20,044 nt of DNA from Aquificaceae bacterium (GTDB lineage: Bacteria; Aquificota; Aquificia; Aquificales; Aquificaceae): NCBI GenBank assembly GCA_037924335.1, contig JAXSMZ010000027.1, positions 1 through 20,044 on the forward strand, given 5' to 3'. Under the pieces are notes generated by a model. The model was not told where the DNA came from, searched no databases, and worked only from the letters and a program-made list of their open reading frames with translations. The translations under genes and the position numbers were made by a program. Each line of letters starts with the position of its first letter. The first letter of the stretch is position 1. Below, in pieces: positions 1 through 20,044 of the stretch.

Positions 1-116
1 GTCCTGAATGTGGATATCAGGACAAGATGAACCGCGTAGGTGCGCGGTTCACAAGGGAGCTTATAGTCCCCTTGCCTGCTAAACCTCATTCTGTGGAATA
101 TTTTTCTATGGGATGA
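1..116 (+). pseudogene. tnpB: 3' end of an internally deleted TnpB-derived ORF (partial, runs off the window start)
   Basis: Frame 3 reads (C)PECGYQDKMNRVGARFTRELIVPLPAKPHSVEYFSMG*. CxxCG..K.NR resembles the first TnpB zinc-ribbon pair. The tail is nearly identical to the tnpB tail at 19921-20043, but the DAD catalytic motif and 5 codons (RNVLM) are absent. Confidence 0.65.
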
Positions 117-124
117 GGAACTAT
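5..124 (+). ncRNA. putative TnpB omega-RNA (reRNA) scaffold / element right end, family A copy 1
   Basis: 120/120 identical to 12214-12333. Stems: 28-36/43-51 (9 bp perfect), 52-57/69-74, and 84-98/104-118 (15 bp with 4 G-U pairs). Loop ATAGT (63-67) is complementary to terminal ACTAT (120-124), giving a possible pseudoknot. Confidence 0.7.
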
Positions 125-296
125 GCTTTACGGCTTTTTAACAACCATAACAGTGGGTGCATCCTATCACATAGTTCCTTTTCTACTCTGGTGGAAGGTT
201 TACGCCCCAAAGATGGGAAAGGAGAAGGTCTCTACCTTGAAAGAGATCCTTAACATAAAAGTTGCAAAGTTGCTCCTCCTGGCAATAAAAGCTTAG
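123..296 (+). pseudogene. 57-codon fragment of a membrane protein, probably interrupted by the element
   Basis: MLYGFLTTITVGASYHIVPFLLWWKVYAPKMGKEKVSTLKEIL... is hydrophobic and reads like an internal part of a real membrane protein. It starts exactly at the element boundary and its stop overlaps the speD stop. Confidence 0.5.
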
Positions 297-5135: not shown

Positions 5136-5262
5136 GTGAACTATCCTTCATTTCAATGAAGGGCTTCCTGCTTCAACGACAGGTGCCTCGTAGACCAAGC
5201 CATATAAGCTTGTTCCGCCGCCAGAGCTATCTTCACAGGCGTAAGTTCGGGCTGTTCCATTC
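5136..5262 (-). ncRNA. putative omega-RNA scaffold overlapping the tnpB 3' end
   Basis: TTACGCCTGTG...GTCGTTGAAGCAGGAAGCCC, then a hairpin, then TAGTTCAC. TGAA and TTCA are complementary (possible pseudoknot). The 5' limit is approximate. Confidence 0.6.
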
Positions 5263-5740
5263 ATACTTAATGCTATATATAGTAGATTTTTCGCTGCATT
5301 GATATATCTGTCATGCTTTGTTCTACATACAGGGCATGTCCACTCTCTGTCGTAGAGAGTCAGAGATGTGTTTTTGTAGCCACATTCACTGCAAAGTTTT
5401 GAGGATGGGTAGAACCTATCGGCAAAGATAATGTCTCTTCCATACCACTTAGCTTTGTAGGATAGAAAGGTCAAAAACATAGTCCAGCCACTATCGAAGA
5501 TGGCTTTGGATAATCTACCATTTTGAAGAAGACCTTTGACGTGCAGATTCTCTACCACTTGGTTTTCGTTGATAATAGTAGAGGAAAGTTTATGTAGAAA
5601 ATCTATCCTTTGATTTCTTACTTTCTCATGCAATTTTGTCACTCTTTGTGCTTGCTTTTGATAGTTCTTAGAATCCTTCTCTTTCCTGCTTAATTTTTTC
5701 TGTTGTCTCTTGGGAAGCCTCTCAGTCTTTAGTAGATACC
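5148..5740 (-). pseudogene. tnpB: C-terminal half of TnpB, N-terminus and RuvC-I deleted
   Basis: The open frame extends upstream of the ORF call (QKKLSRKEKDSKNYQKQ). It contains RNQRIDFLHKLS, VENL, PSSKLCSECG, WTCPVC and HDRYINAAKN, where the consensus is HDRDxNAA. Confidence 0.9.
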
Positions 5741-5841: not shown

Positions 5842-5885
5842 GGCTCATAACCCGAAGGTCGGAGGTTCAAATCCTCCCCCCGCAA
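5842..5885 (+). pseudogene. orphan 3' half of initiator tRNA-fMet(CAT), att-site-like
   Basis: GG-CTCATAA-CCCGA-AGGTC-GGAGG-TTCAAAT-CCTCC-CCCCGCA-A gives the anticodon loop, T arm and acceptor 3' strand. No D arm or 5' acceptor strand upstream. Confidence 0.85.
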
Positions 5886-11849: not shown

Positions 11850-12114
11850 ACGCCGAGTGAGAAATTCAAGAAAGCTCAGATACAAGCCTATCAATAAAAA
11901 GAGGCAGTAGGACTATAATTATTAGTCCTACAACCCTTAGGAGGTTATAACGTGGATATTTACTAACTTACATGTCCATCTAAAACAAAATCCTTCAAGA
12001 CTTCTTAAATGTGCCAAGAAATTAGCTCAACTTGAAAAGGACACAGAAGATAAAGAGGTATAGGAGAATGAGGTGAAGGAACAACGGCAGAATGCCTAAT
12101 TTCTCACCCGGCGT
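11850..12114. mobile_element. 265-bp MITE-like element bounded by 17-bp terminal inverted repeats
   Basis: ACGCCGAGTGAGAAATT (11850-11866) matches the reverse complement of AATTTCTCACCCGGCGT (12098-12114) at 16/17. No intact ORF inside and no clear TSD. Confidence 0.6.
11907..11931. repeat. 9-7-9 inverted repeat GTAGGACTA-TAATTAT-TAGTCCTAC
   Basis: Perfect 9-bp arms overlapping a TATAAT, followed by GGAGG at 11940-11944. Confidence 0.6.
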
Positions 12115-12135
12115 ATTAGAAACTAATCACTGAAT

Positions 12136-12173
12136 ATATAGAAGTTTATAAACGCATATAGAAGTTTAGAAAC
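12136..12173 (+). repeat. tandem direct repeat ATATAGAAGTTTA(T/G)AAAC x2 with 20-bp period
   Basis: Copies at 12136-12153 and 12156-12173 match at 17/18. Confidence 0.75.
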
Positions 12174-12184
12174 ATAAAGACCCC

Positions 12185-12212
12185 TTGACACTTTTGGTTG
12201 TATGGATATGTT
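12185..12212 (+). promoter_or_regulatory. sigma70-type promoter directly upstream of the stand-alone omega-RNA
   Basis: TTGACA (12185-12190), 16-nt spacer, TATGTT (12207-12212). Confidence 0.6.
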
Positions 12213-12213
12213 A

Positions 12214-12333
12214 TGAATGTGGATATCAGGACAAGATGAACCGCGTAGGTGCGCGGTTCACAAGGGAGCTTATAGTCCCCTTGCCTGCTAAACCTCATTC
12301 TGTGGAATATTTTTCTATGGGATGAGGAACTAT
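12214..12333 (+). ncRNA. stand-alone putative omega-RNA scaffold, family A copy 2
   Basis: Identical to 5-124, with no tnpB coding sequence upstream (in-frame stop at 12167-12169). Confidence 0.7.
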
Positions 12334-12358
12334 AAAATAATAATACATAAACTTGTCT

Positions 12359-12453
12359 GGCATAGACAGTAATCTATGCCCTACCGTTGGACCGACGGGA
12401 AGTTAAGCCCCCACAAGGGGAAGCTCCTCATTTGAGTGAGGAGAGGAGGTCAC
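12359..12453 (+). mobile_element. about 95-bp non-autonomous IS200/IS605 mini-element (PATE-like)
   Basis: Hairpin GGCATAGA-N6-TCTATGCC (12359-12380), then TACCGTTGGACCGACGGGAAGTTAAGCC...GGAAG, hairpin CTCCTCA/TGAGGAG (12424-12443) and terminal GGTCAC. The layout matches the right end at 5136-5262. Confidence 0.68.
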
Positions 12454-12631
12454 TACTAACCATGCTTCCATAGCTACATTTATATCCTTTTGGTGGAGAA
12501 GCAGGAGTTCTAGAGTTAAGACAAGTTTAAAGCCAGCCTTCGCAGCTCCAAGATTTTTTCTCCGTTGACATTCTATCGATAACCCAACAAGTTTTTATTT
12601 TGTCGTACCAAACCATTGAATGTTTTCTTGC

Positions 12632-19813: not shown

Positions 19814-19912
19814 AGTATTTAGTTTAATAACCAAAGGAGAGAGTTATTTACGAACATTTCAAAGTCAAAGAAGCTATTCCTTCGAAAACATTAAAGGTTA
19901 TAATTAATACTT

Positions 19913-19993
19913 ATAGTTCCTCATCCCATAGAAAAATATTCCACAGAATGAGGTTTCGCAGGCAAGGAGACTATAAGCTCCCTTGTGAACCGC
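19913..19993 (-). ncRNA. omega-RNA / right-end core, family A copy 3
   Basis: 79/81 identical to 44-124. Shared sequence ends at GAGGAACTAT. Confidence 0.7.
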
Positions 19994-20043
19994 ATAAGAA
20001 CATTCCTCGCACCTACAATGTCTGCATCTTCCTCATATCCACA
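19921..20043 (-). CDS. tnpB: 3' end of tnpB (partial, runs off the window end)
   Basis: CGYEEDADIVGARNVLMRFTRELIVSLPAKPHSVEYFSMG* covers the zinc-ribbon end and the RuvC-III DAD..GA.N motif. Confidence 0.82.
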   Translation of the reverse strand, partial: CGYEEDADIVGARNVLMRFTRELIVSLPAKPHSVEYFSMG

Positions 20044-20044
20044 C

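What the first reader, a model, noticed from the sequence alone, without database searches (positions are those of the whole stretch)
12185..12355. Stand-alone, promoter-driven compact omega-RNA: one of three copies of a TnpB guide scaffold, each with a different guide
Seen: 12214-12333 is identical to 5-124, and its last 81 nt match the tnpB tail at 19993-19913 (79/81). All three copies share sequence through ...GAGGAACTAT and then diverge: GCTTTACGGCTTTTTAACAA, AAAATAATAATACATAAACT and AAGTATTAATTATAACCTTT. The module folds into three stems, one with 4 G-U pairs (strand-specific), and loop ATAGT can pair with terminal ACTAT. This copy has no tnpB gene but has TTGACA-16-TATGTT immediately 5'. 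Known: TnpB omega-RNAs overlap the tnpB 3' end, close a pseudoknot at the element end, and use flanking DNA as the guide. Inference: a dispersed set of roughly 115-nt guide RNAs programs a TnpB, or a nuclease-dead TnpB, in trans.
Basis: partly seen in the sequence, partly recalled or inferred. Interest (0 to 1): 0.85.

Follow-up and report, generated by a model that had tools for sequence, protein, structure and literature searches.

The report
Gene-less IS607 mini-transposon, trimmed guide scaffold
This is the most shortened copy of a small, gene-less jumping element present many times in a hot-spring bacterium; its right end is the guide-RNA fold of the transposon nuclease TnpB, and any RNA it makes would likely only help the element hold its own insertion site, a known kind of behaviour.

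Summary
The repeats, fold, pseudoknot and promoter-like match are real, but this is no stand-alone RNA gene. 12113-12333 is a 221-bp deletion derivative of a tnpB-only IS607-type element with 21 right ends in this genome, 9 carrying the same trimmed hairpin. Relatives of its TnpB sit behind serine transposases; insertion is at GTAT with AT at both ends (an empty orthologue confirms it), so the 'guides' are simply flanks. The -35 is the element's own; the -10 comes from tnpB codons. The promoter abuts the scaffold only because this one copy lost 76 bp that sister 297-bp minis keep, including two conserved 5' hairpins. The core (nexus stem, pseudoknot) covaries strongly across the clade and the parent TnpB keeps D-E-D, so loading in trans for self-retention is plausible but untested. 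This copy's guide is the end of another mini-transposon (7 chromosomal matches, wrong TAM). Protein-free elements with omega-RNAs are known; the IS607 origin, AT core with GTAT TAM and natural scaffold deletion series were not found in my searches. The scan met this family before on other DNA (e1-8566502, e1-9978439).

The parts
12113..12333 (+). 221-bp gene-less mini-element (counted from the GTAT target motif to the right end) of a tnpB-only IS607-type family ('family A')
   Evidence: Sharp shared ends in 21 left and 21 right ends of G000; deletion series about 1.2 kb > about 350 > 297 > 221 bp
12113..12116 (+). GTAT target/TAM motif; its AT is the left copy of the core dinucleotide; its GT coincides with the last two bases of family C
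   Evidence: 21 of 21 left ends in G000 begin GTAT; empty orthologue of the 5-124 site reads GGTAT-guide in 3 of 4 relatives
12117..12193 (+). Left end with TAGAA(A/G)(C/T) direct repeats at 12117, 12139, 12159, 12167, likely serine-transposase binding motifs
   Evidence: IS607 left-end repeats described in PMC6188088 (passages); binding is inferred
12185..12212 (+). Chimeric promoter-like site: -35 TTGACA from the element's own tnpB promoter, -10 TATGTT from tnpB Tyr-Val codons
   Evidence: Parent has TTGACA-17-TACAAT before the tnpB ATG; 12194-12213 aligns to tnpB codons W-L-Y-G-Y-V; scan hit 10/12; activity untested
12213..12214 (+). Join of a 76-bp deletion private to this copy; removes conserved hairpin H, the 5' strand of the basal stem and the 5' arm of hairpin SL0
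   Evidence: Comparison with complete 297-bp minis C4:55003-55299 and C18:151-447; folds; not bridged in the listed contigs of 7 metagenome runs
12214..12235 (+). Orphaned loop and 3' arm of SL0; its CAGG could stand in for the lost 5' strand of the basal stem
   Evidence: substitution is predicted only
12237..12260 (+). SL1 trimmed to 10 bp; in full-length elements the same base pairs close an arm of about 90 nt over the zinc-finger/RuvC-III codons
   Evidence: 9 of 21 right ends are trimmed; base of SL1 93% paired, 4 of 7 pairs with double changes; compensatory C-G to T-A in mini L070 and in run X2
12261..12283 (+). SL2 (nexus-like stem) with pseudoknot loop ATAGT at 12272-12276
   Evidence: 7 of 7 pairs with double changes, 97.7% paired in 19 sequences; recovered unprompted by RNAalifold
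12293..12327 (+). SL3 terminal hairpin, 15 bp with 4 G-U pairs
   Evidence: 73% paired, 7 of 8 counted pairs with double changes, poorly alignable
12328..12333 (+). AACTAT right end: closes the pseudoknot; last AT is the right copy of the core dinucleotide
   Evidence: 20 of 21 right ends end CTAT, 1 CTGT; pseudoknot 98.9% paired
12334..12353 (+). Predicted guide; it is the left part of a family-B element
   Evidence: 7 other chromosomal sites match 17-19 of 20, all preceded by TGTGGT or TGTGAT
12334..12453 (+). Family B: gene-less IS200/IS605-like mini-element ending GAGGAGGTCAC, lacking its first about 25 bp here
   Evidence: about a dozen related places in G000; weak HgcC similarity, E 0.14, below threshold
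11850..12114 (.). Family C: internally deleted IS with 17-bp inverted ends; sister copies have 23-25-bp target duplications starting with AT, which create a GTAT at their edge
1..124 (+). Second copy: a trimmed-SL1 mini cut by the contig start, retaining GTCC that the 221-bp copy lacks; inserted inside a protein gene
   Evidence: uninterrupted orthologues in 4 relatives
19913..20044 (-). Third copy: tnpB tail with RuvC-III codons and long SL1, cut by the contig end

Best explanation
12113-12333 is a gene-less, internally deleted copy of an IS607-type transposon whose right end is the 3' part of the TnpB guide scaffold, and any RNA it makes would likely be loaded by TnpB from full-length copies and point only at the element's own empty site. 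Steps. SHOWN: shared ends, deletion series, GTAT target with AT at both junctions, covarying nexus stem and pseudoknot, intact D-E-D in the parent TnpB. INFERRED from IS607 biology: a serine TnpA acting in trans binds the left-end repeats, excises the mini as a double-stranded circle and reinserts it at GTAT; excision rejoins GTAT to the right flank; TnpB with the flank-guided RNA cuts that joint and recombination with the sister chromosome restores the element. INFERRED: the 297-bp minis, which keep every conserved hairpin and only trim SL1, are the form that spread; the 221-bp copy is a later one-off deletion that lost hairpin H, SL0 and one strand of the basal stem, so I put its own chance of making a loadable RNA at about one in three, against about 60% for the 297-bp form.
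For: Ends and copies. Parent element = left end + 367-aa TnpB (NF040570) + right end, no tnpA. IS607 clade: 39 of 80 metagenome loci with TnpB relatives carry a serine tnpA or a piece of one upstream, 0 of 186 loci hit the two partial Y1 queries; autonomous relatives also start GTAT and end AACTAT. Target: orthologue of the 5-124 site reads GAT GGT ATG C in G005, G006, G004-type loci (3 of 4); only GTAT restores the frame at L028. Structure: covariation score 0.417 against 0.179 shuffled (0/500) and at most 0.175 slid; loop/end 5-mers fully paired in 60 of 65 non-redundant ends. The 297-bp mini folds with H, basal stem, SL0, SL1, SL2, SL3, z -10.1. Stop-free tnpB pieces at contig edges cover aa 1-233 and 150-367 with all three catalytic residues. 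Random left-end/tnpB joins give such a -10 in 603 of 13590 trials, 4.4%. Literature passages: PATEs often encode omega-RNAs used in trans (PMC10055086); IS607 TnpB cuts donor joints (10.1101/2023.11.20.567912).
Against: No transcript or binding data; the one RNA run gave 5 low-depth contigs that cannot show expression. No serine TnpA above cut-off and no Y1 in the G000 assembly, nor a serine TnpA in complete G017, which has 3 full copies, so present mobility is unproven. No complete tnpB is assembled in G000. Clade covariation shows the parent's RNA is functional, not the mini's; the 9 trimmed copies are almost identical, so they carry no signal of their own. SL1 trimming could be a hairpin-driven deletion. 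In the 221-bp copy the conserved SL2 pairs are predicted at only about 0.43 probability, against 0.99 in the one 297-bp transcript folded (0.66-0.79 at 70 C; lower again when that scaffold was cut shorter). The right junction sits at a TGGT/TGAT position of family B, not GTAT, so the locus was probably rearranged.
Confidence: 0.6

Rival explanations
1. Fully passive MITE: the minis spread (or once spread) only because they keep both transposase-binding ends; the folds are inherited baggage and no mini RNA is loaded by TnpB.
For: The right end must be kept for transposition anyway; copies are near identical; the promoter match is not above shuffle expectation; this copy lost conserved 5' elements; no expression evidence.
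Against: The 297-bp form's left breakpoint falls just upstream of the first conserved hairpin and its second deletion spares the base of SL1; a diverged mini in another genome keeps the trimmed stem by a compensatory change and keeps a -10-like hexamer (L070), although parents also vary at those two positions; 4.4% chance for the -10.
Confidence: 0.3
2. One reading: a dispersed, host-retained set of compact guide-RNA genes programs TnpB or a dead TnpB against chosen targets such as phages or other mobile elements.
For: In this copy the predicted start (about 12219) lies just before a CAGG that can replace the lost basal strand, giving a tidy three-way core; its guide matches 7 copies of another mini-transposon.
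Against: Guides are insertion flanks, one inside a disrupted gene; the locus is empty in the closest relative G006, 80-bp gap; the trimmed hairpin was found in 1 of 151 genomes of the phylum by pattern; no RTRT-adjacent 16-nt self targets for any of 21 guides; no phage record match; viral scans gave 0, 0 and 4 hits, the 4 for an AT-rich 20-mer at chance level and not extending; TnpB is catalytically intact; family-B sites lack the GTAT motif.
Confidence: 0.06
3. The 221-bp form is an assembly artefact that collapsed a 297-bp mini between two other repeats.
For: Repeat-rich locus; several sister copies have N gaps; the join has 1 nt of shared sequence and is not bridged in the listed contigs of 7 runs, which show the 297-type continuation.
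Against: No N in the window; contig C10 ends exactly at the left side of the join and C8 resumes right beside its right side, as expected if reads with this join branch the graph; those runs hold only about half of the stretch's words and are not the source.
Confidence: 0.08

Closest known systems
PATE-like protein-free elements with omega-RNAs in Geobacillus stearothermophilus (Meers et al., PMC10055086; passages seen)
   Same: Gene-less derivative with both ends, omega-RNA at the right end, needs TnpA and TnpB in trans
   Different: Those are IS200/IS605 (Y1, hairpin ends); this one derives from an IS607 clade with direct-repeat left end and a dinucleotide core, and shows stepwise trimming of the scaffold
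IS607-family CboIStron and ISXfa1 (10.1101/2023.11.20.567912; 10.1101/2023.08.09.552727; passages seen)
   Same: Serine-transposase family, matching dinucleotide at both ends and in the target, nexus stem closing a pseudoknot with the scaffold 3' end, TnpB aimed at the donor joint
   Different: Those use GG cores and G-rich TAMs (TGGG, GGG); here the core is AT and the target GTAT; no intron, no tnpA, no tnpB in this copy
Standalone omega-RNAs acting in trans (described in PMC10691335 introduction; passage seen)
   Same: Mobilised omega-RNA without effector in a genome that has the effector
   Different: In-trans function was shown there and is untested here; here the promoter is a deletion chimera
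Engineered truncated ISDra2 omega-RNA (PMC10821889; passages seen)
   Same: 5' segments removed and a long stem shortened to a small loop, core stems kept
   Different: Here the trimming is natural and in another TnpB clade; which hairpins are dispensable cannot be carried over
ISFba1 / RAGATH-18 IS607 TnpB systems (PMC11061315; passages seen)
   Same: IS607 TnpB with pseudoknotted guide RNA
   Different: RAGATH-18 RNA lies downstream of the gene and TAMs are AGGAG or GAGGG; here the scaffold overlaps the coding end and Rfam gives no match

Membership tests
IS607 family | Serine-recombinase tnpA in the element or its lineage | tested here: inconclusive
   Absent from this element, from its full-length parent and from the G000 assembly; present upstream, whole or in part, in 39 of 80 metagenome loci of TnpB relatives at about 32-55% identity, including a remnant at L108 (55%)
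IS607 family | No terminal inverted repeats and no target duplication | tested here: met
   Ends GTATTAG and GAACTAT are not inverted repeats; flanks of copies with both ends are unrelated
IS607 family | Same dinucleotide at both ends and in the target | tested here: met
   AT at 21 of 21 left and 20 of 21 right junctions and in the empty site; it is AT, not the GG of the elements in PMC6188088
IS607 family | Directly repeated TnpA-binding motifs in the left end | tested here: inconclusive
   7-nt repeats at element positions 5, 27, 47, 55 (and 83 in the parent), spacings 22, 20, 8, 28; binding untested
TnpB omega-RNA | Scaffold at the element right end with nexus stem and 3' pseudoknot | tested here: met
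TnpB omega-RNA | TAM plus guide equals the empty donor site | tested here: met
   Shown for the 5-124 copy; not testable for the 12113 copy, whose two flanks come from different repeats
TnpB omega-RNA | Complete clade scaffold retained | tested here: not met
   This copy lacks hairpin H (79% paired, 9 of 12 pairs with double changes), the 5' basal strand (59% paired, near relatives only) and the SL0 5' arm; the 297-bp form keeps them
TnpB omega-RNA | Transcribed, bound by TnpB, directs cleavage | not testable with these tools
   Only contigs of one RNA run were available
PATE / IS200-IS605 derivative | Protein-free element keeping both ends | tested here: met
PATE / IS200-IS605 derivative | Belongs to a Y1 (HUH) transposase lineage | tested here: not met
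   0 of 186 loci hit by two partial Y1 queries, many by serine queries
TldR (nuclease-dead TnpB regulators) | Inactivated RuvC in the cognate protein | tested here: not met
   D186, E251, D335 present in P0001 and in G000 fragments
RAGATH-18 / any Rfam family | Rfam match at gathering score | tested here: not met
   Best hits over the region 23.8 and 22.8 bits against thresholds 57 and 50

The most novel reading that the evidence does not exclude
The family is a natural minimisation series for an uncharacterised IS607 TnpB clade that uses an AT core and a GTAT TAM. The 221-bp copy is its end point: a working RNA of about 115 nt plus guide in which a second CAGG replaces the lost basal strand, made from a promoter that deletion assembled right at its 5' end, and whose guide lets TnpB engage the left ends of a different mini-transposon family (7 chromosomal copies) without cutting them.
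Probability: 0.1. Interest if true: 0.65.

Novelty: new variant of a known kind. Interest (0 to 1): 0.32.

Why it matters
As biology it is mostly ordinary: protein-free elements carrying omega-RNAs are described. Two points have some value. First, the clade is IS607 yet inserts at GTAT with an AT core, whereas 10.1101/2023.11.20.567912 states that IS607 TnpBs evolved G-rich TAM preference (passage); a whole-word search for GTAT with TnpB and TAM found no paper. Second, the three natural scaffold lengths give a ready-made test of which hairpins a 367-aa TnpB from a hot-spring bacterium needs, of use for compact thermostable editors if the nuclease is active.

Tried and rejected
Rfam: nothing at threshold. 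TnpA in G000: PF00239 0, PF01797 0, NF033518 one hit far below cut-off. The serine-TnpA elements of G005 and G042 are other IS607 families; G000 holds only tnpB remnants of the G042 one. Pattern for the trimmed hairpin: 0 in metagenome contigs, 1 of 151 genomes (G000 only; the genome holding L070 was not shown among them). Guide targets: none TAM-adjacent over 16 nt in G000 for 21 guides; phages no match; viral contigs 0, 0 and 4 hits for the three window guides, the 4 rejected as chance (AT-rich, no extension, about 0.1-9 expected per 10 Gb); the other 18 guides were not scanned against viruses. Empty-site tests at C8, C15, C18, C2 and C7 were uninformative or ambiguous; L064 shows an apparent empty allele with ATAT instead of GTAT and four left ends (L023, L026, L029, L063) start GTGT, so the motif is GTAT by preference, not absolutely. 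Reads: only contigs were served; RNA run X9 covered 12214-12335 at low depth and not the left end, which shows neither strand nor expression. Nuclease-dead partner rejected (intact D-E-D). IS200/IS605 assignment rejected. One search failed on a frame slip and was not needed. No structure prediction or covariance model was built; pair counts and RNAalifold were used instead. Supplements of the papers were not opened; TAM tables there could list a GTAT enzyme.

Full report
Observation. The sequence statements hold. 12214-12333 is identical to 5-124 and matches 19993-19913 at 79 of 81. The 120-mer folds well (z -5.64 on +, -4.05 on -), the last stem has 4 G-U pairs and TTGACA-16-TATGTT lies at 12185-12212, one hit against 3.0 expected in shuffles. 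Rfam has no family for it. The window is the whole of contig C27 of G000; titles of the nearest TnpB carriers are Aquificaceae and the runs that hold the stretch are mostly hot-spring metagenomes.

It is a mobile element with two ends. BLAST of the genome gave 21 right ends that stop at GAACTAT (one GAACTGT) and a shared left end starting at 12113; 21 of 21 left-end motifs begin GTAT, three of them from diverged sub-families. The parent is left end + tnpB + right end with no transposase gene. Its TnpB is 367 aa, matches NF040570 just at cut-off and keeps D186, E251, D335. G000 has no complete copy assembled, but stop-free pieces at contig edges span aa 1-233 and 150-367. Shorter forms make a series: about 350 bp with the left end fused to the 3' part of tnpB (C12:290, C2:70418), 297 bp with the long arm also trimmed (C4:55003, C18:151), and 221 bp here. 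Of 21 right ends 9 are trimmed, 10 long, 2 undetermined. Of the 8 other trimmed copies 6 show bases that the window copy lacks and 2 are hidden by N gaps.

Family. Relatives of the TnpB were fetched from three collections. Two serine-TnpA queries hit many of 186 loci, two partial Y1 queries none; by my list from that output 39 of the 80 metagenome loci, redundant ones included, have a serine tnpA or a piece of it upstream. These autonomous relatives also start with GTAT in most left ends inspected and end in AACTAT. The left end carries short direct repeats, as described for IS607 ends (PMC6188088, passages). So this is an IS607-lineage element that lost tnpA. Against present mobility: no serine TnpA above cut-off in G000 or in complete G017; G005 and G042 have one from other families.

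Target and guides. The copy at 5-124 interrupts a gene whose orthologues read GGT ATG C across the site in 3 of 4 relatives, and only GTAT restores the frame at L028. The target is thus GTAT, with AT at both junctions, and the 'guide' is the right flank, so TAM plus guide is the empty site, as in CboIStron (10.1101/2023.11.20.567912, passages), which uses GG and TGGG instead. Exceptions: GTGT left ends at L023, L026, L029, L063 and an apparent ATAT empty allele in L064. None of 21 guides has a TAM-adjacent 16-nt match in G000; phage and viral searches with the three window guides gave nothing above chance.

This locus. In the closest relative G006 the coaBC-serA gap is about 80 bp; here it is 870 bp and holds three repeats end to end: family C (11850-12114, inverted ends), family A (the finding) and family B (12334-12453, IS605-like). 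The guide is therefore family-B sequence: 7 other sites match 17-19 of 20 nt, preceded by TGTGGT (5) or TGTGAT (2), not GTAT. The left junction fits insertion at the GTAT formed by a family-C end and its duplication; the right junction does not fit the same event, so a rearrangement is likely (inference).

Promoter. The parent has TTGACA-17-TACAAT before the tnpB start. In the minis the -35 remains and the -10 is TATGTT from the Tyr-Val codons of tnpB. Random joins would give such a hexamer in 603 of 13590 cases, a weak hint of selection from a single founding event. Contigs of 7 runs show the 297-type continuation at 12214 where a loose end is listed, one spans a whole 297-bp mini, and no listed piece bridges the 221-type join (tables were cut). 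Contig ends C10 and C8 lie at the join, which suggests it is real in the source reads.

RNA structure. On 19 full-length relatives chosen by me for spread, a five-helix model was 85.3% paired with covariation 0.417 (shuffled 0.179, 0 of 500; slid at most 0.175): SL2 7 of 7 pairs with double changes, pseudoknot 98.9% paired, SL1 base 93%, SL0 and SL3 about 73%. Related sequences can beat the shuffles without structure, and the model came from these sequences, but RNAalifold found hairpin H, a short SL0, the SL1 base and SL2 unprompted. Over 65 non-redundant ends the loop and terminal 5-mers pair fully in 60, with ACAGT/ACTGT and ATGGT/ACCAT swaps; the ends were picked by a motif, so this count is biased upward. 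Upstream hairpin H is 79% paired with 9 of 12 double changes; the basal stem holds only in near relatives, 59%. The 297-bp mini keeps all of these and folds at z -10.1. The 221-bp copy has lost H, the basal 5' strand and the SL0 5' arm; the freed arm competes with SL2 (pair probability about 0.43 against 0.99 in the one 297-type transcript folded), though its CAGG could replace the basal strand. A diverged mini in another genome keeps the trimmed stem through a C-G to T-A change (L070; same changes in run X2); parents vary at these positions too. For ISDra2, 5' segments were dispensable and a shortened stem worked (PMC10821889, passages), and processed omega-RNAs of 79-466 nt are reported (PMC10278001, passages), so a short form is possible, not shown.

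Mechanism and rivals. Best reading (0.6): selfish non-autonomous IS607 minis whose RNA would guide TnpB in trans to their own empty sites, with this copy a further-deleted singleton. Rivals: wholly passive MITE (0.3), assembly artefact for the 221-bp form (0.08), host-retained guide set (0.06).

Comparison. It works like the PATEs with omega-RNAs of PMC10055086 (passages) and the standalone omega-RNAs cited in PMC10691335 (passages), but is not a PATE in the strict Y1 sense, not a RAGATH-18 system (PMC11061315, passages) and not a TldR. Eight literature searches (listings and abstract starts) did not show an IS607 gene-less mini with an omega-RNA, a GTAT TAM, or a guide aimed at another element; the library lacks most subscription papers and supplements were not opened. 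Earlier scan notes had already called this family a miniature transposon with a trimmed guide; the IS607 assignment, target motif, loss of 5' hairpins in this copy and the family-B guide were tested here.

Verdict. Real feature, observation confirmed, interpretation partly supported; new variant of a known kind; interest 0.32.

Noticed in passing
window 12334-12453; G000 C1, C2, C4, C8, C11, C23, C30: Family B: about 145-bp gene-less IS200/IS605-like minis with a left hairpin and a GAGGAGGTCAC right end, about a dozen places, with compensatory variation in the last hairpin; weak HgcC similarity.
   Followed up: partly
window 11850-12114; G000 C4:78315, C5:54714, C22, C26, C38: Family C: internally deleted IS with 17-bp inverted ends ACGC...GCGT and unusually long 23-25-bp AT-rich target duplications; its edge plus duplication makes the GTAT that family A uses, which may explain their co-location, also at 19912.
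   Followed up: partly
L023:1501, L029:1501, L067, L068, window 122-127: The right end GAGGAACTAT followed by G rebuilds an ATG with a GAGG six bases upstream; several insertions sit exactly at host start codons (uvrD-like, mutS2-like) and may leave the gene translatable.
   Followed up: no
   Followed up: partly
window 5148-5642 (-) and 5848-5885: 3' fragment of a different, IS200/IS605-type tnpB ending in an ...AGTTCAC right end, next to a partial tRNA-like stretch that ARAGORN does not call.
   Followed up: no
L072 (G042:C9) and G000 C4:54607-54992, C7:52597-53276, C18, C28: A second IS607 family with intact serine tnpA in G042 has a left-end motif resembling family A's (ACTAGTCTCTGA against ACTAATCACTGA) and tnpB remnants in G000: a candidate helper transposase.
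   Followed up: partly
G000 C4:18950-19330 and C17:14307-14780; C8:49769: Other deletion derivatives with family-A-like left ends: two with a shortened terminal hairpin, one with a different structured RNA before yebC.
   Followed up: no
window 11931-11907 (-) and 12456-12631: A terminator-like hairpin inside family C and about 175 bp between family B and the serA stop that do not match the G006 gap.
   Followed up: no
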